Source of the DNA: the human T2T-CHM13v2.0 reference genome, Homo sapiens
Reading direction: 5' to 3' (one strand)
Assembly (NCBI RefSeq): GCF_009914755.1
Contig: NC_060934.1
DNA: 64,000 nucleotides
The notes under the pieces were generated by a model, which was not told the DNA's origin, made no database searches, and worked only from the letters and a program-made list of their open reading frames with translations. Made by a program: the position numbers and the translations under genes. Below, piece after piece: positions 14,125 through 26,641 of this stretch (position 1 is its first letter; each line of letters begins with the position of its first letter).

Positions 14125-15556
14125 TACAAATGGTGATGATCATCAGGTCAAGGATAGTCTGGAGCAATTGAGATGTCACTTTACATGGGAGTTATCCATT
14201 GATGACGATGAAATGCCTGATTTAGAAAACAGAGTCTTGGATCAGATTGAATTCCTAGACACCAAATACAGTGTGGGAATACACAACCTACTAGCCTATG
14301 TGAAACACCTGAAAGGCCAGAATGAGGAAGCCCTGAAGAGCTTAAAAGAAGCTGAAAACTTAATGCAGGAAGAACATGACAACCAAGCAAATGTGAGGAG
14401 TCTGGTGACCTGGGGCAACTTTGCCTGGATGTATTACCACATGGGCAGACTGGCAGAAGCCCAGACTTACCTGGACAAGGTGGAGAACATTTGCAAGAAG
14501 CTTTCAAATCCCTTCCGCTATAGAATGGAGTGTCCAGAAATAGACTGTGAGGAAGGATGGGCCTTGCTGAAGTGTGGAGGAAAGAATTATGAACGGGCCA
14601 AGGCCTGCTTTGAAAAGGTGCTTGAAGTGGACCCTGAAAACCCTGAATCCAGCGCTGGGTATGCGATCTCTGCCTATCGCCTGGATGGCTTTAAATTAGC
14701 CACAAAAAATCACAAGCCATTTTCTTTGCTTCCCCTAAGGCAGGCTGTCCGCTTAAATCCAGACAATGGATATATTAAGGTTCTCCTTGCCCTGAAGCTT
14801 CAGGATGAAGGACAGGAAGCTGAAGGAGAAAAGTACATTGAAGAAGCTCTAGCCAACATGTCCTCACAGACCTATGTCTTTCGATATGCAGCCAAGTTTT
14901 ACCGAAGAAAAGGCTCTGTGGATAAAGCTCTTGAGTTATTAAAAAAGGCCTTGCAGGAAACACCCACTTCTGTCTTACTGCATCACCAGATAGGGCTTTG
15001 CTACAAGGCACAAATGATCCAAATCAAGGAGGCTACAAAAGGGCAGCCTAGAGGGCAGAACAGAGAAAAGCTAGACAAAATGATAAGATCAGCCATATTT
15101 CATTTTGAATCTGCAGTGGAAAAAAAGCCCACATTTGAGGTGGCTCATCTAGACCTGGCAAGAATGTATATAGAAGCAGGCAATCACAGAAAAGCTGAAG
15201 AGAATTTTCAAAAATTGTTATGCATGAAACCAGTGGTAGAAGAAACAATGCAAGACATACATTTCCACTATGGTCGGTTTCAGGAATTTCAAAAGAAATC
15301 TGACGTCAATGCAATTATCCATTATTTAAAAGCTATAAAAATAGAACAGGCATCATTAACAAGGGATAAAAGTATCAATTCTTTGAAGAAATTGGTTTTA
15401 AGGAAACTTCGGAGAAAGGCATTAGATCTGGAAAGCTTGAGCCTCCTTGGGTTCGTCTACAAATTGGAAGGAAATATGAATGAAGCCCTGGAGTACTATG
15501 AGCGGGCCCTGAGACTGGCTGCTGACTTTGAGAACTCTGTGAGACAAGGTCCTTAG
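14125..15556 (+). CDS. IFIT1: IFIT1 exon 2: interferon-induced TPR protein 1 (ISG56), cap0/5'-ppp RNA binder; 478 aa in total
   Basis: Acceptor ttttacag|TACAAAT; CHFTW motif; TPR repeats; C-terminus YYERALRL...SVRQGP; 5+1432=1437 nt. Confidence 0.99.
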
Positions 15557-15677
15557 GCACCCAGATATCAGCCACTTTCACATTTCATTTCATTTTATGC
15601 TAACATTTACTAATCATCTTTTCTGCTTACTGTTTTCAGAAACATTATAATTCACTGTAATGATGTAATTCTTGAAT

Positions 15678-15870
15678 AATAAATCTGACAAAATATTAGT
15701 TGTGTTCAACAATTAGTGAAACAGAATGTGTGTATGCATGTAAGAAAGAGAAATCATTTGTATGAGTGCTATGTAGTAGAGAAAAAATGTTAGTTAACTT
15801 TGTAGGAAATAAAACATTGGACTTACACTAAATGTTTAATTCATTCATTTTATTGTGAAATAAAAATAAA
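15678..15870 (+). terminator. IFIT1: IFIT1 proximal polyadenylation signals
   Basis: AATAAA at 15678, 15808, 15859 and 15865; the first is followed by a GT-rich element (gttgtgttc). Confidence 0.8.
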
Positions 15871-16515
15871 ATCCTTAGCTCCTCCACCAACTGAACAGAC
15901 CCTCTGGCCAAGGAGACCCCAGAAACCTTAAAAACTAAGTTTCCCAACCATGACAAGATGAGAGATCATTCACACCTCATTATATTCCCTCCCTTGCTAA
16001 CTGCCATTGGACTTTTTCCACTGAGTTAAACAGAAACCCATGGAAAACAAAGAACAGAAGACTCACTCCTTGGCTGACTTCACCTAGCTCACTCCACGTA
16101 GCGCCACAGCCAGACTCCCCTCCCCTCTTGCGGTTTCCACATGACAACTGATCAGCCTTCCCTCCTGATAAGTGACCACTGCCCACAGACTGGTTCTGGC
16201 CAGTCCATGGAGGCTGCACACAGGGTGCCTCTATGTCCTTTGTTTCACCTTTTGACATAGAAAGGCTAATTTTGCTGTATTTTAATGTTAAGTCTCCACC
16301 ACAGAGTGAACACAGAATGCATGTGACATACATGTTTACATACCACTATTGTGTGACTGCCCCTCATGAATATTCATAGCCCCCCATAACCTGTTAACTA
16401 TGTGTGTCTAGCCAATCCACCAACCATAAAACTTCTGTAATACCCTCCCTTCCTCCAAGAGCCTGCTTTTGGTTGCTGTGGTAGGCTCTGCTTCCCAGGC
16501 TGCAGGTTGCAGGAG
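15854..16515 (+). mobile_element. ERV1 (MER4-group-like) solo LTR
   Basis: tgtgaaataaaaataaaatcc...ggccaaggagaccccagaaacctt start; catgaatattcatagc motif. Confidence 0.65.
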
Positions 16516-16518
16516 AGG

Positions 16519-16815
16519 AGGCTGCAGTGGCTCACGCCTGTAATCTCAGCACTTCGATGGGACGAGGCAGGCAGATCACCTGAACCCAGGAGTTCGAGAG
16601 CAGCCTTGGCAATGGCAAAACCAACCGTCTCTACAAAAAATGCAAAAACTTAGCTGGGTGTGGTGGCATGCACCTGTAGCTTCAGTTCCAGCTACTCAGG
16701 AGGCTGAGGTGAGTGGACTGCTGGAGCCAGGGAGTTCGAGGCTGCAGTGTCGAGATCTTGCCACTGCACTCCATTCTGGATGATAGAACGAGACCCCATC
16801 TCAAAAAAAAAAAAA
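16519..16815 (+). mobile_element. AluJ
   Basis: Diverged Alu dimer with A-tail. Confidence 0.9.
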
Positions 16816-17286
16816 GTTCTCTCCAATTGTATATAGCTTGTGATTTTATGTCAACACTATCAATAAATAGCTTTCAGTGCAAGAAACCAAAAATACTGTA
16901 ATAAACAGGCACATATTCTTCCCAAACCTCATGCAGTTTACAATCTAGTGAGAGACACAGATAGCAGTACAGAGTCAATTAAAGGTTAGTTTTCTTCATG
17001 AAGATGTTTTAATTTTAATTCAATGTGAAAGGGTTCCAAGGAGTTTATCTTGTTTTATGCCATTTTATTTGAAGCACTACTTACTAAGTCATTTGCTGAT
17101 ATTAATCTAGTTAAATCAAGAAATATTACATGAAAATGTTGCTAAATCAGAGATCATGGGTAACAATCACCTTTGATTATGAATAATCATATTTTATTGA
17201 AAGGCAAGGCACAACAAATAATAAGAAGGAAAAAATAAATAAGCAATGTTATTGATCTTTCATTCTGTATATGTTTTGGGGGGAAT

Positions 17287-17761
17287 ATACTAGTTTCTTT
17301 TAGTGGCTGTAACAAATTACCACAAACTTGGTGACTTAAAATTTCACAGATTTACTCTTTCTTACAGTTCTGGAGGTCAGAAGTCTGAAATGGGTTTCAA
17401 TGAGCCAAAGTCAAGGTATTGATGACGCTACACTCCTCCGGAGGCTCTAGGCAGATAGCCTTTTCCAGCTTCCAGAGGCTGCCTGAATTCTTTCATCCAT
17501 CTTAAAAACCAACAGTGTAGTAGCCTCAAATCTCTCTCTCTGCTTCCTTCTTCACATCTCCTTCTCTCCTCTGACTCTTTTGCCTCTTTCTTCTAAGGAC
17601 GCACCAGGTCCACCTGCATAATCCAGAATAATTGCCCCATCCGCAAATCCTTAATTTAATAACATCTGCAAAGTCCCTTTTGCTATGTAAAGTAGCATGT
17701 TCACAGGTTCTGGAGACTTGGCCATGGATACGATTGCGGGGGGGGCATTATTCTTACCACA
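17287..17761 (-). mobile_element. MLT1 (B/C-like) MaLR LTR
   Basis: gctgtaacaaattaccacaaacttggtgacttaaa...cagttctggaggtcagaagtctgaaat. Confidence 0.85.
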
Positions 17762-18059
17762 GAGCACCCCAAGAAAATCTCCAAATTTTGGGCTTCCAAT
17801 CCATTTTGCTTCAATTATTTAATATTTTTACTCCTTCCAGTAGATACTGATTTCATCCATTGCCCTTAAGAAGGTAGGACAGAGATTATGGCACATCTCA
17901 CATTAAATGCTATATTTTCGTTGGAAATACATTTTTTGCTTCAACTTTTATTTTAAATTCAAGGGTACATGTGCAGGATGTTCAGGTTTGTTACACAGGT
18001 AAACGTGTGCCATGGCGGTTTGCTGAACAGATCATCCCATCACCAACAGATCATCCCAT

Positions 18060-18681
18060 TGAGAGGTGAAGCCGGCTGGGCTTCTGGGTTGGGTGGGGAC
18101 TTGGAGAACTTTTCTGTCTAGCTAAAGTATTGTAAAATGGACCAGTCAACACTCTGTAAAATGGACCAATCAGCTCTCTGTAAAATGGACCAATCAGCAG
18201 GATGTGGGTGGGGCCAAGTAAGGGAATAAAAGCAGGCCACCCGAGCTGGCAGCGGCAACCCGCTCGGGTCCCCTTCCATGCTGTGGAAGTTTTGTTCTTT
18301 CGCTCTTTCAATAAATCTTGCTGCTGCTCACTCTTTGGGTCTGCACTGCTTTTATGAGCTGTAACACTCACCACGAAGGTCTACGGCTTCACTCCTGAAG
18401 CCAGCGAGACCACAAACCCACCAGGAGGAACAAACAACTCCCGACACACCACCTTTAAGACCTGTAACACTCACTGCAAAGGTCTGCAGCTTCACTCCTG
18501 AAGTCAGCAAGACCACAAACCCACCAGAAGGAAGAAACTCTGGATGCATCTGAACATTGAAAGGAACAAACTCTGGACACACCACCTTTAAGAACTGCAA
18601 CACTCACTGTGAGGGTCCGCAGCTTCATTCTTGAAGTCAGCGAGACCAAGAACCCACTGGAAGGAACCAATTCCAGACAAA
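18060..18681 (+). repeat. 5' LTR12 (622 bp)
   Basis: 2 intact CCAAT boxes; AATAAAA TATA-equivalent at 18225; poly(A) signal AATAAA 18310-18315; U5 tandem repeats. Confidence 0.95.
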
Positions 18682-18684
18682 TTT

Positions 18685-18702
18685 TGGTGACCACGAAGGG
18701 AC
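18685..18702 (+). other. Primer-binding site, tRNA-Arg
   Basis: TGGTGACCACGAAGGGAC, one mismatch to the tRNA-Arg 3' complement TGGCGACCACGAAGGGAC. Confidence 0.85.
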
Positions 18703-19945
18703 TATCGCCTATCACCTATCGCCAAGCAGTGAGTACCATCGGACCCCTTTCACTTGCTATTCATCCTATTTTTCCTTAGAATTCGGGGGCTAAATACTGG
18801 GCACCTGTCGACCAGTTAAAAGCAACTAGTGTGGCCGCCAGACTAAAGACACGGGTGTCAGGCTTTCTGGGAAAGGGCTCTCTAACAACCCCCGACTCTT
18901 TGGAGTTGGGAGCGTTGGTTTGCCTGGAACCAGCTTCCATTATTCCTGTACTTCCAGGCTGAACCAAGGGTTGACAGGGAGGAAAGCCATTCAGCTCTGG
19001 GGTCCTGACAACAAGTTCATTGACCCTGCGGCCATGAGTGAAACTCTCAAAGTCATGTCGCCCAAGTGAGACTCACCTATCTATTCTATCTACCCTAACC
19101 CTTGCCTCCTGGGTCCTAATGCCTGCCAGACAAACTTCCTCTTGCTTCTCTTCTCCGAGGCTAGTCCCGCTTCTAAAAACCACTCCCTGTCTCTGGTGCT
19201 TTTCTAGTTTCCCCTATAAGAATGATTTCTAGTATAAACTTCCGGACTCTGTTACCATCTTTAGGCACCCAGGCTCACCAATGAGAAAGACATAATTTTT
19301 GCCCAAAGCCCCATCGTATGGGGGACTATCTGGAATTTTAGGATCCCTCCTCAGACAAGCAGGCCTAACAAAAGCTATTCCTGAAGCTAGAATATGGGGA
19401 GCCTCAGAAATTGTATCCTTCCTATTCATATAAATGAAGACAAAAGGCATTACGCTTCCAACTCTGGAGCTCCCTTCCCTCCCTCAGGGTATGGCCCTCT
19501 ACTTCATTTTTGGGGCATAACATCTTTATAGGACACAGGTAAGGTCCCAATACCAACAGGAGAATGCTTAGGACTCTAACAGGTTTTAGAGAATGCGTCG
19601 GTAAGGGCCGCTAAGTCCGATTTTTCTCGGTCCTCTTTGTGGTCTAGGAGGACAGGCAAGGGTGCAGGTTTTCGAGAATGTGTAGGTAAGGGCCACTAAA
19701 TCCAACCTTCCTCAGTCCTCCTTGTGGTCTAGGAGGAAAACTAGTGTTTCTGCTGCTGCATTGGTGAGTGCAACTATTCCAATCAGCAGGGTCCAGGGAC
19801 CATTGCGGGTTCTTGGGCAAGAGGTGTTTCTGCTGCTGCATCAGTGAGTGCAACTATTCTGATCAGCAGGGTCCAGAGACCATTGCGGGTTCTTGGGCAG
19901 GGGGAGAAACAAACAAACCAAAACCATGGGTGGTTTTGTCTTTCA

Positions 19946-21401
19946 GAAGGAAAACACTCAGGTATCAACAGGCTCACCCTTGAAATGCATCCTAAGCCAT
20001 TGGGACCAATTTGACCTGCAAACCCTGAAAAAGAGGTGGCTCATTTTTTTCTGTGCTATGGCCTGGCCCCAATATTCTCTCTCTGATGGGGAAAAATGGC
20101 CACCTGAGGGAAGTATAAATTACAATACTATCCTTCAGCTTGATATTTTCTGTAAGAGGGAAGGCAAATGGAGTGAAATACCTTATGTCCAAGCTTTCTT
20201 TTCATTGAAGGAAAATACACAACTATGCAAAGCTTGCAATTTACATCCCACAGGAGGACCTTTCAGCTTATCCCCATATCCTAGCCTTCCTATAGCTCCC
20301 CTTCCTATTAATGATAAGCCTCCTCTAATCTTCCCTGCCCAGAAGGAAATAAGCAAAGAAATCTCCAAAGGACCACAAAAACCCCAGGGCTATTGGTTAT
20401 GTACCCTTCAAGCTGTAGGGGGAGGGGAATTTGGCCCAACCTGGGTACATGTCCCCTGCTCCCTCTCTGATTTAAAGCAGATCAAGGCAGACCTGGAGAA
20501 GTTTTCAGATGATCCTGATAGGTACACAGATGTCCTACAGGGCCTAGGGGAAACCTTCCATCTCACTTAGAGAGATGTCATGCTAGTGGTAGATCAAACC
20601 CTGGCCTTTAATGAAAAGAATGTGGCTTTAGCTGCAGCCTGAGAGTTTGGAGATACCTGGTATCTTAGTCAGATAAATGATAGAATGACAGCCCAAGAAA
20701 GGGACAAATTCCTTACTGGTCAGCAAGCCATCCCCATTATGGATCCCCACTGGGACCTCAACTCAGATCATGGGGACTGGAGTCGTAAACATCTGTTGAC
20801 CTGTGTTCTAGAAGGACTAAGGAGAATTAGGAAAAAGCCCACGAATTATTCAGTGATGTCCACCATAACTAAGGGAAAGGAAGAAAATCCTTCTGCCGTC
20901 CTTGAGCGGCTACGGGAGGCCTTAAGAAAATATGCTCCCCTGTCATCTGAATCACTAGAGGGTCAATTGATTCTAAAATATAAGTTTATTACCCAATCAG
21001 CCACAGATATCAGGAGAAAGCTCCAAAAGCAAGCCCTGGGCCCTGAACAAAATTTGGAGGCATTATTAAACCTGGCAACCTCGGTGTTCTATAATAGGGA
21101 CCAAGAGGAACAGGCCGAAAAGGAAAAGCGAGATCAGAGAAAGACCGCAGCCTTAGTCGTGGCCCTCAGACAAACAAACCTTGGTGGTTCAGAGAGGACA
21201 GAAAATGGAGCATGCCAATCACCCGGTAGGGCTTGTTATCAGTGTGGTTTACAAGGACGCTTTAAAAAAGACTGTCCAAACAAGCTGCCCCCTCACCCAT
21301 GTCCACTATGCCAAAGCAATCACTGGAAGGCACACTGCCCCAGAGGACAAAGGTTCTCTGGGACAGAAGCCCCCAACCAGATGATCCAACAACAGGACTG
21401 A
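19946..21401 (+). pseudogene. HERV9 gag, disrupted
   Basis: MA-like WPQYSL, MHR-like GKEENPSAVLERLREAL, zinc knuckles CYQC..C (His lost) and CPLC..H..C; stops at ~20568 and ~20640. Confidence 0.9.
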
Positions 21402-22660
21402 GGGTGCCTGGGGCAAGCACCAGCTCATGTCATCACTCTCACTGAGCCCCAGGTATGTATAACCATTGAGGGGCAGGAAATTGACTTCCTCCTGGACACT
21501 GGTGCAGCTTTCTCAGTGTTAGTCTCCTGTCCTGGACAGCTGTCCTCAAGTTCCATTACCATCCAAGGAATCCTGGGACAGCCTGTAACCAGGTGTTTCT
21601 CCCACCTCCTCAGATGTAATTGGGAGACTTTGCTCTTTTCACATGTCTTTCTTGTTATGCCTGAAAGTCCCACACCCTTATTAGGGAGGGATATATTAGC
21701 CAAAGCTGGAGCTATTATCTAAACGAATATGAGGAATAAGTTACCCATTTGTTGTCCCCTACTTGAGAGGGGAATCAACCCTGAAGTCTGGGCATTGGAA
21801 GAAACAAACTCAAGCTCTAGCCTTAAGCCTTCCCAAAGGATGAAACTTTTCTTTAAACATCACAGAGAAAGCAGAAATAGCTCCTGGGGTCCTTACTCAG
21901 ACTCGTGGGACAACCCCATGACCAGTGGCATACCTAAGTAAGGAAACTGATATAGTAGCAAAAGGCTGGCCTCACTGTTTAAGGGTAGTTGTGGCAGTGG
22001 CCATCTTAGTGTCAGAGGCTATCAAAATAATATAAGGAAAGGGTCTCACTGTCTGGATACTCATGATGTAAATGGCATACTAGGTGCCAAAGGAAGTTTA
22101 TGGCTATCAGACAACTGCCTACTTAGATACCAGGTGCTACTCCTTGAGGGACCAGTGCTTCAAATACCTATATGCGTGGCCCTCAACCCTGCCACTTTTC
22201 TCCCAGAGGTTGGGGAACCAATTGAGCATGACTGCCAACAAATTAGTCCAGACTTATGCTGCCCGAGATGATCCCTTAGAAGTCCCCTTAGCTAATCCTG
22301 ACCTTAACCTATATACCGATGGAAGTTCATTTATGGAGAATGGGATACAAAGGACAGATTATGCCATATTTAGCGATGTAACCATACTTGAAAGTAAGCC
22401 TCTTCCCCCAGGGACCAGCACCCAGTTAGGAGAACTAGTGGCACTTACCCGAGCCTTAGAACTGGGAAAGGAAAAAGCAATAAATGTGTATACAGAGAGC
22501 AACCATGCTTATCTAATCCTACATGCCCATGCTGCAATATGGAAAGAAAGGGAGTTCCTAACCTCTGGGGGAACCCCCATTAAATAACACAGGGAAACCA
22601 CGGAGTTATTGCACGCGGTGCAAAAACCCAAGGAGGTGGCAGTCTTACACTGCTGAAGCC
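21402..22660 (+). pseudogene. HERV9 pro and pol remnant (RT and IN deleted, RNase H retained)
   Basis: Protease FLLDTGA at ~21486; RNase H LYTDGSS...ELVALTRAL; stops and frameshifts. Confidence 0.85.
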
Positions 22661-23466
22661 ATCAAAAGGTGAAGGAGAGGGAAGAACAGCAGCATAAGCC
22701 ACTGGCAGAGGCAGGGAAACACCAGCAGAAAGGAAAGCAAGAAAGAGACAGAAAGTCAGAGAGAGAGAGACAGAGAGAGGAAGAGAGAGACGAAGAAGTC
22801 AAAGAGAGAGATAGAAGTAGTAAAGAAAAAACAGTGTACCCTATTCCTTTAAAAGCCAGGGTAAATTTAAAACCTATAATTGATAACTGAAGGTCTTCTC
22901 AGAAACCCTATAACACTCCAATACCACCTTGCTGTCAGTGTAAACAAGGGCGTAGCCTGAAAGCACTGAGGCCACTGACAACCAGTAGCCTTCCTATCAA
23001 AAATCCTTACCCAGCAGGTTTCCTAACAGGGGATCTAAATCTTAATTAATTCCCATACAAAGGTCTGACCAGATCTAGGAGGAACTCCCTTCAGGACAGG
23101 ACGGATAGATGGTTCCTCCTGGGCAATTAAGGAAAAAAAAAACACAATGGGTATTCAGTAAATAATAAGGAAACTCTTGTAGAAGCAGTGTTAGGAAAAT
23201 TGCCTAATAATTGGTCTGCTCAAATGTGTCAGCTGTTTGCACTCAGCCAAACCTTAAAATACTTACAGAATCAGGAAGGAGCCATCTATACCAATTCTAA
23301 GTTAATATGGACTGAACGAGGTCTTACTAATAGCAAAGAATAATTGAAATCCCAAACTTACAAGGTTTTCAACTAACGTAAAGTTTGCTAAAAGTTAACA
23401 GTGTAACATGCATTATCCTACTACCATACACTCTCAAAGGATTTCTCAGACAGTTTGCATGAAATA

Positions 23467-23901
23467 ATGAAATCTATCCTTACTCTACAATCCCAAACAG
23501 ACTCTTTGGCAGCAGTGACTCTCCAAAATCGCCAAGGCCTAGACCTCCTCACTGCTGAGAAAGGAGGACTGTGCAGCTTCTTAGGGGAAGAGTGTTGTTT
23601 TTACACTAACCAGTCAGGGATAGCACGAGATGCCACCCGGTGTTTACAGGAAAAGGCTTCTGAAATCAGACAACACCTTTCAAACTCTTATACCAACCTC
23701 TGGAGTTGGGCAACATGGCTTCTCCCCTTTCTAGGTCCTGTGGCAGCCATCTTGCTGTTACTTGCCTTTGGGCCCTGTGTTTTTAACCTTCTTGTCAAAT
23801 TTGTTTCCTCTAGAATTGAGGCCCTCAAGCTACAGATGGTCTTACAAATGGAACCCCAAATGAGTTCAACTAACAACTTCTACCGAGGACCCCTGGACTG
23901 A
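23467..23901 (+). pseudogene. HERV9 env TM remnant, 144-aa open frame
   Basis: ISD LQNRQGLDLLTAEKGGLC, CX6CC (CSFLGEECC) and membrane anchor; SU missing. Confidence 0.85.
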
Positions 23902-24054
23902 CCTGCTGGCCCTTCCACTGGCCTAAAGAGTTCCCCTCTGGAGGACACTACACCTACAGGGCCCCTTCTTCGCCCCTATCCAGCAGAAAGTAGCTAGAGC
24001 AGTCATCAGCCAAATTCCCATCAGCAATTGGGGTGTCCTGTTTAGAGGGGGGAT

Positions 24055-24790
24055 TGAGAGGTGAAGCTGGCTGGGCTTCTGGGTCAGGTGGGGACTCAGA
24101 GAACTTTTCTGTCTAGCTAAAGAATTGTAAACGCACCAATCAGCACTCTGTGTGTAGCTAAAAGTTTGTAAACGCACCAATCAGCACTCTGTCAAAATGG
24201 ACCAATCAGCACTCTGTAAAATGGACCAATCAGCACTCTGTAAAATGGACCAATCAGCACTTTGTAAAGTGGACCAATCAGCTCTCTGTAAAATGGACCA
24301 ATCAGCAGGATATGGGTGGAGCCAAATAAGGGAATAAAAGCAGGCCACCCCAGCCAGCAGCGGCAACCTGCTCGGGTCTGCTTCCACGTCGTGGAAGTTT
24401 TGTTCTTTCGCTCTTCGCAACAAATCTTGCTGCTGCTCACTCTTTGGGTCCACACTGCCTTTATGAGCTGTAACACTCACCACAAAGGTCTACGGCTTTA
24501 CTCCTGAAGTCAGTGAAACCACGAACCCACCGGGAGGAACGAACAACTCCGGACGCGCCACCTTTAAGATCTGTAACACTCACTGTGAAGGTCTGCAGCT
24601 GCACTCCTGAAGTCAGCAAGACCACGAACTCACCAGAAGGAAGAAACTCCAGACACATCTGAACATCGAAAGGAACAAACTCCAGACACGCCATCTTTAA
24701 CAACTGTAGCACTCACAGCGAGAGTCCGCAGCTTCATTCTTGAAGTCAGCAAGACCAAAAACCTACTGGAAGGAACCAATTCCGGACACA
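24055..24790 (+). repeat. 3' LTR12 (736 bp)
   Basis: Preceded by PPT AGAGGGGGGA (24044-24053); 7 CCAAT boxes; AATAAAA at 24333; poly(A) position reads AACAAA (24419-24424). Confidence 0.95.
24634..24694 (-). CDS. LIPA: Putative LTR-derived antisense coding exon (MACLEFVPFDVQMCLEFLPS-G), probably an alternative N-terminus of LIPA
   Basis: Strong Kozak AAGATGG, 61 nt, then consensus donor CTG|GTGAGT; acceptor ttccttccag at ~24766; LIPA assignment from recollection, not verified. Confidence 0.6.
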
Positions 24791-24990
24791 CCATCACCTA
24801 CGTATTAAGCTCAGCATCACTTAGCTATACTTCTTGATGCTCTCCCTCCCACCACCCCCAACTCCAACAAGCCCCAGTGTGTGTTGTTCCCCACTGTGTC
24901 CGTGTGTTCTCATCATTTAGCTCCCACTTACAAGTGAGAACATGCAGTGTTTGGTTTCTGTTCCTGCATTAGTTTGCTGAGGATAATCAC

Positions 24991-25175
24991 TGGAAATACT
25001 TGCTCTGTATTTAGATTTCATAAAATTTGCAACTTATAAAAAGCAGATTCGTATACCTAAGTTATTCCAAATGTAAGTTTTCTATTAACTTATCAGTTTT
25101 TAAATTTATATTAAATTAAAAATCAGGTTCTTAATAGCCACAGGTGACCAGCAGTTTCTGTATAAGACAGTACAA
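24991..25175. mobile_element. Charlie1/MER33-type hAT fragment (other part at ~17900-17930)
   Basis: ggaaatacttgctctgtatttagatttcataaaattt...tagccacaggtg resembles the Charlie1 terminal region. Confidence 0.6.
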
Positions 25176-25305
25176 CTGTTAGAAGTGATTGCTTTAAATG
25201 AGGCACTCGCTTCAGGCACTAAGTTTTGAGGGGTGGGGTGCCAGAAGCTCAGTGATCAAGGTAGACAATATTTCAATGCAATATGTTTTTAAAAATTCAA
25301 AATCA

Positions 25306-25626
25306 GGCCAAGCATAGTGGCTCATGCCTGTAATCCCAGCATTTTGGGAGGCCACGATGGGCGGAACAATATTTAAGGTTTAGAAAAATATTTGTGCCCA
25401 GGTGTTGGAGACCAGCCTGGGCAACATGGCAAAACCCCGCCTCTACAAAAAATAAATTAATTAGCCCGACATAGTGGTGCACACATATAGTCCCAGCCAC
25501 TCAGGAGGCTGAGGTGGGAGGATCGCTTGAGCCATGAAGGTTGAGGCTGCAGTGAGCTGTCATCTCACCACTGCACTCCAACCTGAGTGACAGAGTGAGA
25601 CCCTGTCTCAAAAAAAAAAAAAAAAA
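25306..25626 (+). mobile_element. AluJ with an internal non-Alu insertion
   Basis: Alu consensus, TSD CAAAATCA; foreign insert at ~25366-25391. Confidence 0.9.
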
Positions 25627-26109
25627 CAAAATCAATGCAAAAGATGAATTATGGACAGGATATTGAGGTTTTGAATACAGACATTAACTCAATAAGGGTA
25701 AGGCCCGTGTCTGTTTTCTTTATTGTTATATTGACAGTACTTTGAACAAAGTCTGGCTCTTACAGTTGTTTGTCAATATTTGCTGAATGAATTCAAAGGG
25801 GACAAAATGTTTAAGGTATGGGTGTTTGACATTTTCTGCCTAGATCCCCAATACCACTCTTGTCTTTATTGGGTCCTTATTACAAAGCACCATTGGCGAA
25901 GGTATGGAAGAGAAGCAGTCTCCTACAATTGTGGGTAAGAGTGGATTTTTAAAGCTATTTGGCAATATCCGTCAAAACTTAAAATGTATATAGATTTTAG
26001 CTCCAAATTTCTCAGTTTACACCCAACAGAAATAACAGCATAGATGTATAGCATTGCAGTGTTGCTTGTTGAATCAAAAGACTGGAGTGGAAGCAGGGAC
26101 TTAAGTTTC

Positions 26110-26218
26110 CGCCTGTAATCCCAGCACCTTGGGAGGCAGAGGCGGGCGCATCCCTTGAGATCACGACTGGGTGACACAGTGAGACGCTATCTCAAACAAA
26201 CAAACAAACAAACAAACA
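26110..26218 (+). mobile_element. Alu monomer fragment with (CAAA)n tail
   Basis: gcctgtaatcccagcac...gtgagacgctatctcaaacaaac. Confidence 0.75.
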
Positions 26219-26363
26219 GTTACACGGGCAGCATGCGAACTCAGCGTACTCAGGGAGGCAGATAAAAGCCGAGACCAAAGTGAAGGAGCCCAGCTGCAAA
26301 TTCAACTCCGAAAGACCCTGGACTCCGCAAACGTCTGGCCGCGGCTCTTGAGCTCTTCTATTA

Positions 26364-26417
26364 AGTTTCGGTTTCTGAAGCTTACGTTTAGTTTCGATTT
26401 CTTAAGTTTCAGTTTCT
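26364..26417 (+). promoter_or_regulatory. IFIT5: IFIT5 triple ISRE
   Basis: AGTTTCGGTTTCT 26364-26376, AGTTTCGATTTCT 26390-26402, AGTTTCAGTTTCT 26405-26417. Confidence 0.95.
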
Positions 26418-26641
26418 GAGCGCTCGGCATCTGATTCAATCTCCAGTTTCCTGTTCTTGCTGGGGCTGGGGTCTCTCCTTTAACAAAGACACGCCGCGCG
26501 GCCGAGTCCAGGGGCTGCAGAGGCCTGGCGCGCGCACGCGCACGCGCACGCCCACCGCGCGGCTTCCCGCGGTCCCCGGTGCTGAGGAGAGAGCGATCCG
26601 AGGGACTGCGCCGCCCGGACGGCCTGCAGAGCGCTGCCATC

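What the first reader, a model, noticed from the sequence alone, without database searches (positions are those of the whole stretch)
18060..26420. Candidate system: the two LTRs of one HERV9 provirus have split roles between IFIT1 and IFIT5
Seen: LTRs that must have been identical at integration now differ at functional positions. Poly(A): AATAAA (5', 18310) vs AACAAA (3', 24419). CCAAT boxes: 2 vs 7. Antisense ATG and donor: GTG and GTGGGT (5') vs ATG and GTGAGT (3'). Known: LTR12 elements are NF-Y-driven promoters exapted at GBP2/GBP5 and TP63. Inference: the 5' LTR terminates IFIT1, while the 3' LTR acts as promoter/enhancer for IFIT5 and as an antisense exon donor, wiring the provirus into the interferon response.
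Basis: partly seen in the sequence, partly recalled or inferred. Interest (0 to 1): 0.8.

Follow-up and report, generated by a model that had tools for sequence, protein, structure and literature searches.

The report
Old ERV9 provirus between IFIT1 and IFIT5
A long-dead retrovirus copy lying between two interferon-induced genes supplies the annotated end of the IFIT1 messenger RNA and a small upstream exon of LIPA transcripts, but the differences between its two ends look like ordinary decay, not a division of labour.

Summary
A defective ERV9/LTR12-type provirus lies at 18060-24790. It has two LTRs (622 and 736 nt, 90.0% identical), a tRNA-Arg primer site, a polypurine tract and a 4-nt target duplication, all inside one L1.

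Two of the three proposed roles fit the RefSeq table. IFIT1's selected transcript ends at 18330, 15 nt after the 5' LTR's own AATAAA. Three LIPA variant exons (24765 down to 24481, 24584 or 24634, minus strand) have their acceptor and all donors inside the 3' LTR, antisense.

The third role, 3' LTR as IFIT5 promoter or enhancer, has no support. IFIT5 starts 1621 nt downstream at its own triple-ISRE promoter, and neither LTR has an ISRE-like motif.

The "split roles" reading is not supported beyond drift:
- Differences fall in promoter and poly(A) motifs at the chance rate, 4 seen against 3.7 expected.
- CCAAT counts of 2 and 7 both lie within the range of 2-10 in 55 sampled copies.
- The antisense ATG and two of the three used donors are family-wide features.

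A 2025 review says no LTR12 is known to supply a cellular poly(A) signal or an antisense splice event. This locus is therefore a modest new example of a known kind.

The parts
17925..18059 (+). Left half of the L1 fragment that the provirus split; includes a 19-nt local duplication (18026-18044 / 18045-18059, continued at 24791)
   Evidence: 40 L1-like matches in the own genome; in 9 of 9 paralogues this flank abuts the right flank.
18056..18059 (.). Left copy of the 4-nt target-site duplication, CCAT
   Evidence: sequence read directly
18060..18681 (+). 5' LTR (622 nt), short LTR12-type. U3 has 2 CCAAT boxes; AATAAAA at 18225-18231; variant TSS motif GCTGGCAGCGGC at 18245-18256; U5 holds 103-133-nt repeats
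18310..18315 (+). The LTR's own AATAAA, used as the poly(A) signal of the RefSeq-selected IFIT1 transcript (3' end at 18330)
   Evidence: and the RefSeq table (NM_001548.5 last exon 14125-18330). The same hexamer is present in 45 of 55 family copies.
18685..18702 (+). Primer-binding site, 17 of 18 complementary to the 3' end plus CCA of a tRNA-Arg(CCG) gene of the same genome
18682..24054 (+). Defective internal region. Holds Gag MA (weak) and p30, protease in the same frame just after the gag stop, RNase H, and Env TM. RT, integrase and Env SU give no Pfam match. Many stops.
24044..24053 (+). Polypurine tract AGAGGGGGGA just before the 3' LTR
24055..24790 (+). 3' LTR (736 nt). U3 has 7 CCAAT boxes, a 41-nt repeat x2 and a 24-nt repeat x5.5; AATAAAA at 24333; TSS motif GCCAGCAGCGGC at 24353-24364; AACAAA at 24419-24424 in place of the poly(A) hexamer
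24481..24765 (-). Antisense exon of LIPA transcript variants, wholly inside U5 of the 3' LTR. Acceptor AG at 24767-24766. Alternative donors GTGAGT at 24480-24475, 24583-24578 and 24633-24628.
   Evidence: RefSeq table (exons 24481-24765, 24584-24765, 24634-24765); splice-site sequences
24791..24794 (.). Right copy of the target-site duplication, CCAT
24791..24990 (+). Right half of the split L1 fragment
26250..26522 (-). First exons of the LIPA variants (donors GTACGC after 26250, GTAAGC after 26386). They start head-to-head with IFIT5 in its CpG-rich promoter.
   Evidence: RefSeq table
26366..26416 (+). Three ISRE-like motifs (TTTCNNTTTC) at the IFIT5 start. They are not LTR-derived and lie 1.6 kb from the LTR.
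   Evidence: tandem repeat

Best explanation
An old, defective ERV9/LTR12-type provirus inserted in sense orientation into an L1 fragment about 2.5 kb past the IFIT1 stop codon and 1.6 kb before the IFIT5 start. Each LTR is used passively, according to where it sits, through signals that the whole LTR family carries.

(1) IFIT1 transcripts that run past the upstream hexamers reach the R region of the 5' LTR. There the retroviral AATAAA and the following T/G-rich stretch direct cleavage at 18330, which is the RefSeq-selected 3' end.

(2) Divergent transcription from the IFIT5 CpG-island/ISRE promoter runs on the minus strand through the 3' LTR. The antisense U5 of that LTR offers a pyrimidine tract plus AG, and several perfect GTGAGT donors. 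A 132-285-nt exon is therefore spliced into long LIPA variants.

The sequence differences between the LTRs are neutral decay of about 10% plus repeat-number slippage. They are not adaptation to separate roles.

Shown here: the provirus anatomy, the coincidence of annotated ends and junctions with LTR signals, and the family-wide frequency of those signals. Inferred: the mechanism, how much each use contributes, and any interferon inducibility of the LIPA variants.
For: Anatomy.

IFIT1 end: 18330 lies 15 nt after AATAAA at 18310-15, with CTCTTTGGGTCTG...TTTT downstream and no A-run.

LIPA exon: the three annotated donors read GTG|GTGAGT, ACA|GTGAGT and CTG|GTGAGT. The acceptor reads TTGGTTCCTTCCAG|.

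Family background, 55 other copies:
- AATAAA is present in 45 of 55.
- Antisense GTGAGT is present at the homologues of 24480 in 46, of 24583 in 39 and of 24716 in 47.
- The antisense ATG is present in 49.
- The acceptor AG is present in 16.
- CCAAT counts run from 2 to 10.

Drift:
- 4 differences fall in 35 motif nt against 3.7 expected, P = 0.52.
- Rare-state changes number 17 in the 5' LTR and 28 in the 3' LTR, with 15 unresolved; binomial p = 0.135.
- The own LTRs are sisters with end branches of 0.085 and 0.11, against a family median of 0.087.

Literature: van de Lagemaat 2006 (PMC1794541, passages) predicted in silico that antisense LTR12C exonises strongly through splice sites in the LTR.
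Against: - No expression data were available here. How many IFIT1 mRNAs end at 18330 is unknown. Seven AATAAA (15678-17234) and two ATTAAA (16978, 17902) lie upstream in the 3' UTR.
- I could not see whether the LIPA variants are curated or only predicted models, nor how abundant they are.
- The 5' LTR carries the same acceptor and three of the donors, and it lies in the same long primary transcript, yet no exon is annotated there. My account does not explain this.
- The 17 against 28 asymmetry, and the CpG counts of 12 against 21, could hide weak constraint or a methylation difference.
- The 55 copies were picked by similarity to the two LTRs. They include non-independent pairs: L004/L016 lie 7.4 kb apart, and L009/L020 are near-identical.
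Confidence: 0.75

Rival explanations
1. After integration the two LTRs were shaped by selection into complementary host functions. The 5' LTR kept the poly(A) signal and lost promoter strength. The 3' LTR kept the promoter, lost the poly(A) signal, and gained an antisense donor and ATG.
For: The pattern is superficially reciprocal:
- The 5' LTR has 2 CCAAT boxes and a TSS motif changed at 18247-48, states seen in 0 of 55 copies.
- The 3' LTR has 7 CCAAT boxes, an intact GCCAGCAGCGGC motif, and a poly(A) hexamer state seen in 1 of 55 copies.
- The 3' LTR also has a new GTGAGT at 24633, seen in 1 of 55 copies, which is an annotated donor.
Against: - Motif hits are at the chance rate, P = 0.52.
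- The 3' LTR also carries a rare state in the GT/Sp1-like box (18212/24320: 50 of 55 copies match the 5' LTR).
- The ATG is the family state, and it is the 5' LTR that changed.
- Two of the three used donors are unchanged in both LTRs.
- CCAAT number is length-polymorphic across the family. The short and long forms are scattered on the tree: 13 changes against a shuffled mean of 13.4.
- Loss of a sense poly(A) signal has no evident effect on antisense LIPA transcripts or on IFIT5.
Confidence: 0.08
2. The 3' LTR is an NF-Y-bound enhancer, or an upstream alternative promoter, for IFIT5. It would work like the LTR12C promoters at GBP2/GBP5 or the LTR12F enhancer at HERV-K102.
For: The 3' LTR has seven CCAAT boxes, AATAAAA and an intact TSS motif, in sense orientation 1.6 kb upstream of IFIT5. 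There is precedent for LTR12 promoters and for an IFN-gamma-responsive LTR12F enhancer (PMC11853044, passages; PMC7641743, abstract and one passage).
Against: - RefSeq lists one IFIT5 transcript, starting at 26411, and no + strand transcript starting in the LTR.
- The RefSeq enhancers listed lie at 26268-26577 and beyond, not in the LTR.
- There is no ISRE, GAS or AANNGAAA core in either LTR.
- IFIT5 has its own triple ISRE.
- Absence from an annotation table is weak evidence.
Confidence: 0.12
3. Both annotated uses are marginal. The LTR poly(A) site is only the most distal of several IFIT1 sites and carries a minority of transcripts. The LIPA variants are rare by-products of divergent promoter transcription with no function.
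For: Nine canonical hexamers lie upstream in the IFIT1 3' UTR, four of them within 310 nt of the stop. The LIPA variants are among 25 transcripts, and their first exon is antisense promoter output. Two exon-1 donors and three exon-2 donors suggest loose splicing.
Against: The transcript ending at 18330 is the one marked 'selected' in RefSeq. The donors are perfect GTGAGT.
Confidence: 0.3

Closest known systems
LTR-derived polyadenylation of cellular genes (HERV-H LTRs for HHLA2/HHLA3, Mager 1999; HERV-K-T47D-related LTRs, Baust 2000)
   Same: A sense-oriented LTR downstream of a gene supplies the R-region AATAAA that ends the host mRNA.
   Different: Here the LTR is LTR12-type. [quoted passage not shown] The host gene is a major interferon-stimulated gene. 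I saw the two older papers only as entries in that review's reference list; their content is recalled.
Predicted antisense exonisation of ERV9 LTRs (van de Lagemaat et al. 2006, PMC1794541) and the LTR12C splice acceptor in CHM
   Same: Splice sites lie inside an LTR12-type LTR. [quoted passage not shown]
   Different: That was a simulation on a consensus. [quoted passage not shown] Here RefSeq annotates an exon with both its acceptor and its donors in the antisense U5.
LTR12C promoters of GBP2/GBP5 and TP63-type LTR12 promoters
   Same: Same ERV9 LTR family, with CCAAT/NF-Y repeats and an AATAAAA plus GCCAGCAG-type start region, next to immunity genes.
   Different: No transcript is annotated as starting in either LTR here. 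These LTRs lack the long U3 of LTR12C (622 and 736 nt). The TP63 case is recalled, not read.
LTR12F IFN-gamma-responsive enhancer upstream of HERV-K102
   Same: A short LTR12-type element tied to an interferon response (PMC11853044, passages).
   Different: That element is reported to bind IRF1 through an AANNGAAA core. Neither LTR here has that core on either strand.

Membership tests
ERV9 (HERV9) provirus with LTR12-type LTRs | U3 tandem repeats (about 41 nt) carrying CCAAT, a G-rich GTGGGGA motif and a TCTG..CTAGCT motif | tested here: met
   The 3' LTR has a 41-nt repeat x2 at 24110-24192 and a 24-nt CCAAT repeat. GTGGGGA and TCTGTCTAGCT are present in both LTRs. The motif list comes from PMC11853044 section 5. 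The GATA core of that motif is not intact here.
ERV9 (HERV9) provirus with LTR12-type LTRs | AATAAAA about 30 nt upstream of a TSS within GCCAGCAGTGGC | tested here: met
   In the 3' LTR, AATAAAA lies at 24333 and GCCAGCAGCGGC at 24353-24364. The 5' LTR has AATAAAA at 18225 but GCTGGCAGCGGC.
ERV9 (HERV9) provirus with LTR12-type LTRs | Repeated units in U5 | tested here: met
   There are three units per LTR, spaced 103 and 133 nt apart (family D1, period 133). The review gives 72-nt B elements, so the unit length differs.
ERV9 (HERV9) provirus with LTR12-type LTRs | tRNA-Arg primer-binding site (this feature of ERV9 is recalled, not read) | tested here: met
   18685-18702 matches 17 of 18 positions of the 3' end plus CCA of a tRNA-Arg(CCG) gene.
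ERV9 (HERV9) provirus with LTR12-type LTRs | Gamma-type gag-pro-pol-env order on the LTR strand | tested here: met
   Gag_p30 1.1e-19, RVP 2.2e-12, RNase_H 1.3e-9 and TLV_coat 3.2e-40, all on the + strand in that order. Gag_MA scores below its cut-off.
ERV9 (HERV9) provirus with LTR12-type LTRs | Named subfamily (LTR12, LTR12_, B, C, D, E, F) | not testable with these tools
   No repeat library was available. The length (622-736 nt) and the absence of a long 5' U3 extension exclude a typical LTR12C/D/E, going by the lengths given in the review.
LTR-derived poly(A) site of a host gene | The host transcript's 3' end falls 10-30 nt after the LTR's own R-region hexamer, on the same strand | tested here: met
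   RefSeq end at 18330; AATAAA at 18310-18315. This rests on annotation, not on reads seen here.
Exapted LTR promoter/enhancer of a neighbouring gene (GBP2/GBP5 type) | A transcript start inside the LTR, joined to the gene's exons | tested here: not met
   The RefSeq table lists no + strand transcript starting in 24055-24790, and the only IFIT5 transcript starts at 26411.
Exapted LTR promoter/enhancer of a neighbouring gene (GBP2/GBP5 type) | Enhancer activity or chromatin marks over the LTR | not testable with these tools
   No ChIP, ATAC or reporter data were available. No RefSeq functional element lies in the LTR.
Functionally diverged (subfunctionalised) LTR pair | Differences concentrated in functional motifs, or asymmetric constraint | tested here: not met
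   4 differences against 3.7 expected in 35 motif nt, P = 0.52. The 17 against 28 split gives p = 0.135.

The most novel reading that the evidence does not exclude
The provirus rewired two host genes in catarrhine primates. Its 5' LTR set the long 3' UTR of IFIT1, which would be the first LTR12 shown to provide a cellular poly(A) site. Its 3' LTR let the interferon-responsive, bidirectional IFIT5 promoter feed spliced, interferon-inducible transcripts into LIPA about 200 kb away, coupling lysosomal acid lipase to the interferon response through an antisense LTR12 exon.
Probability: 0.15. Interest if true: 0.55.

Novelty: new member of a known kind. Interest (0 to 1): 0.33.

Why it matters
IFIT1 is one of the most used read-outs of interferon signalling. 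If its standard mRNA ends inside an ERV9 LTR, two things follow.

First, every interferon response will register as "LTR12/HERV9 induction" at this locus in repeat-expression analyses. A paper on HIV-activated ERVs already lists IFIT1 among genes near activated ERVs (PMC7641743, one passage). I could not see whether this locus is the one meant.

Second, the length and content of the human IFIT1 3' UTR would be a primate-specific trait.

The locus also gives annotated counter-examples to two statements in a 2025 LTR12 review: that there is no LTR12 poly(A) donor, and no antisense ERV9 splicing. It does not show a new kind of mechanism.

Tried and rejected
- Recombinant or converted LTRs. I asked whether the short 5' LTR and the long 3' LTR came from different elements. 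I rejected this. The flanks are one L1 with a CCAT duplication, and the two LTRs are sisters on the R-U5 block. The tree is star-like (39 of 54 inner branches are open), so conversion limited to the repeat zone cannot be excluded.
- Direction of the CCAAT change. The nearest rows, L021 and L051, are long forms, which hints at loss in the 5' LTR, but support is weak. I left this unresolved.
- Interferon motifs in the LTRs. I found none for GAAANNGAAA, TTCNNNGAA or AANNGAAA.
- Earlier findings of this scan were not open.
- Literature on this locus. Nine searches and passages in PMC8963717, PMC12714223, PMC13709765, PMC7912025, PMC10896070 and PMC13081750 gave nothing on an LTR at the IFIT1 3' end or on a LIPA-IFIT5 link.
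- The one supplement of PMC7641743 held as text has no IFIT1 or IFIT5 entry. Other supplements that I could not see may list the locus.
- The library holds open-access papers only.

Full report
**What is there**

Direct-repeat search finds two copies of a 0.6-0.7-kb element about 6 kb apart. Pairwise alignment sets them at 18060-18681 (622 nt) and 24055-24790 (736 nt). They show 62 mismatches in 622 aligned columns (90.0% identity). There are three indels of 88, 24 and 1 nt; the two long ones lie in the CCAAT repeat zone.

Both copies begin with TG and end with CA or AA. A primer-binding site lies at 18685-18702, three bases after the first copy. It matches 17 of 18 positions of the 3' end plus CCA of a tRNA-Arg(CCG) gene from the same genome. 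A polypurine run, AGAGGGGGGA, precedes the second copy.

CCAT flanks the element on both sides. In 9 of 9 paralogous L1 copies, the sequences left and right of the element are contiguous. This is therefore one integration into an L1 fragment.

The interior (18682-24054) reads gag p30, protease, RNase H and Env TM in that order on the + strand. Protease sits in the gag frame directly after the gag stop. Gag MA scores below its cut-off, and there is no match for RT, integrase or Env SU. The interior has many stops. The provirus is long dead.

**Family**

The LTRs carry the features that a 2025 review lists for LTR12 (PMC11853044, section 5 read whole):
- U3 tandem repeats of about 41 nt with CCAAT and GTGGGGA.
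- AATAAAA upstream of a GCCAGCAG-type start motif.
- Repeated U5 units.

The window's own genome could be searched and gave thousands of first-look candidates (4733 and 4691, of which 40 were scored each time). I used 55 other copies: 28 found with the 5' LTR and 27 with the 3' LTR. I dropped the three rows that are the window's own LTRs and two duplicates (L033 = L028, L037 = L025). The subfamily could not be named without a repeat library.

Every item is present:
- AATAAA at 18310 against AACAAA at 24419.
- Two against seven CCAAT boxes in U3, plus one more in each U5.
- Antisense GTG against ATG.
- Antisense GTGGGT against GTGAGT.

**Which LTR carries the unusual state**

I counted states in the 55 copies at the 60 differing positions outside the repeat zone. 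The 5' LTR holds the rare state at 17 positions, the 3' LTR at 28, and 15 are unresolved, mostly CpG sites. The binomial p is 0.135.

For the named positions:
- The T of AATAAA is shared by 54 of 55 copies, and the whole hexamer by 45 of 55. The 3' LTR is the odd one.
- The antisense ATG is shared by 49 of 55 as the whole triplet, and by 55 of 55 at the differing base. The 5' LTR is the odd one.
- The GTGAGT at 24628-24633 is shared by 1 of 55. The 3' LTR is the odd one.
- CCAAT counts in the family run from 2 to 10. The numbers of copies with 2, 3, 4, 5, 6, 7, 8, 9 and 10 boxes are 8, 12, 9, 13, 5, 3, 1, 2 and 2.

U3 lengths like that of the 5' LTR (138-141 nt, 12 copies) and like that of the 3' LTR (245-254 nt, 19 copies) are both common. 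The two forms are scattered on the tree.

**Are functional positions hit more than chance?**

I took four motifs named in the review: the GT/Sp1-like box, AATAAAA, the start motif and the poly(A) hexamer. Together they cover 35 nt. Four of the 60 differences fall in them, where 3.7 are expected (P = 0.52).

Each LTR has taken a promoter hit: the start motif in the 5' LTR and the GT box in the 3' LTR. This is what about 10% neutral divergence predicts (JC 0.107; non-CpG 7.8%, JC 0.082).

**What the LTRs do, according to the annotation**

*IFIT1.* The RefSeq-selected IFIT1 transcript ends at 18330. That is 15 nt after the 5' LTR's own AATAAA. A T/G-rich stretch follows and there is no A-run that could mimic a poly(A) tail. 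Seven AATAAA and two ATTAAA lie earlier in the 3' UTR. The LTR site is therefore the distal one, and its share of transcripts is unknown.

*LIPA.* Transcript variants start on the minus strand at 26522, head-to-head with IFIT5. They splice from 26250 or 26386 to an exon that begins at 24765 and ends at 24634, 24584 or 24481.
- All three ends sit on perfect GTGAGT donors.
- The acceptor is TTGGTTCCTTCCAG.
- Every one of these sites lies in the antisense U5 of the 3' LTR.

Two of the three donors, and a fourth unused GTGAGT, are family-wide. They are seen in 46, 39 and 47 of 55 copies, and they are also intact in the 5' LTR. The acceptor AG is in 16 of 55 copies and in both LTRs.

So the exon exists because the 3' LTR lies just downstream of a divergent promoter, not because it changed. 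This does not explain why the 5' LTR, which has nearly the same sites and sits in the same long primary transcript, has no annotated exon.

**IFIT5**

I found nothing that ties the 3' LTR to IFIT5.
- The single IFIT5 transcript starts at 26411, 1621 nt past the LTR.
- It starts beside three ISRE-like motifs at 26366-26416.
- No ISRE, GAS or AANNGAAA core is in either LTR.
- No RefSeq enhancer lies in the LTR.

An NF-Y-type enhancer effect cannot be excluded without chromatin data.

**Against what is known**

LTR poly(A) donation and LTR exonisation are known kinds. The review states that its authors know of no LTR12 acting as a cellular poly(A) signal. It also states that ERV9 repeats are not known in antisense splicing events.

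A 2006 simulation had predicted strong antisense exonisation of LTR12C (PMC1794541, passages). Nine literature searches found no description of this locus. The library holds open-access papers only.

**Verdict**

It is a new example of known kinds, of moderate to low interest. It carries one practical caveat: interferon-induced IFIT1 will read as "LTR12 activation" at this locus.

Noticed in passing
18026-18059 with 24791-24798: The L1 target carried a 19-nt tandem duplication (AACAGATCATCCCATCACC twice). The provirus sits inside the second copy. The 9 L1 paralogues examined have the unit once.
   Followed up: partly
19580-19737 and 19744-19903: Two adjacent tandem duplications lie in the proviral leader, upstream of gag: 85 nt x1.9 at 84% and 80 nt x2 at 93%. 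I did not check whether they are typical of ERV9.
   Followed up: no
22657-22890: A purine-rich AG-repeat stretch gives a Lys/Glu/Arg-rich open frame where integrase would be expected. It has no Pfam match and looks like low-complexity filler in the deleted pol-env region.
   Followed up: no
18060-18681 vs 24055-24790: The 5' LTR keeps 12 CpG in 622 nt and the 3' LTR 21 in 736 nt. Seven TG/CA doublets between the LTRs look like one CpG decayed in opposite directions. This may reflect different germline methylation: a transcribed 3' UTR against a site near a CpG island.
   Followed up: partly
18366-18371, 18469-18474, 18602-18607, acceptor 18657-18658: The 5' LTR has three antisense GTGAGT sites and the same acceptor context as the exonised 3' LTR. 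It lies within the same LIPA primary transcript, yet no exon is annotated there.
   Followed up: partly
26364-26418 and 26250-26522: The IFIT5 start overlaps the first exon of the LIPA variants head-to-head by about 110 nt. The three ISRE-like motifs lie inside that minus-strand exon. Whether the LIPA variants are interferon-inducible is open.
   Followed up: no
L009 (C23:87974299-87974918) and L020 (C24:2866143-2866763): Two family copies, one on contig 23 and one on contig 24, are nearly identical (end branches 0.004 and 0.019, support 100). This is as expected for a recent transfer between those two contigs.
   Followed up: no
25306-25615 and 26100-26190: Alu-like sequence lies between the 3' LTR and the IFIT5 promoter, recognised by eye only.
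   Followed up: no
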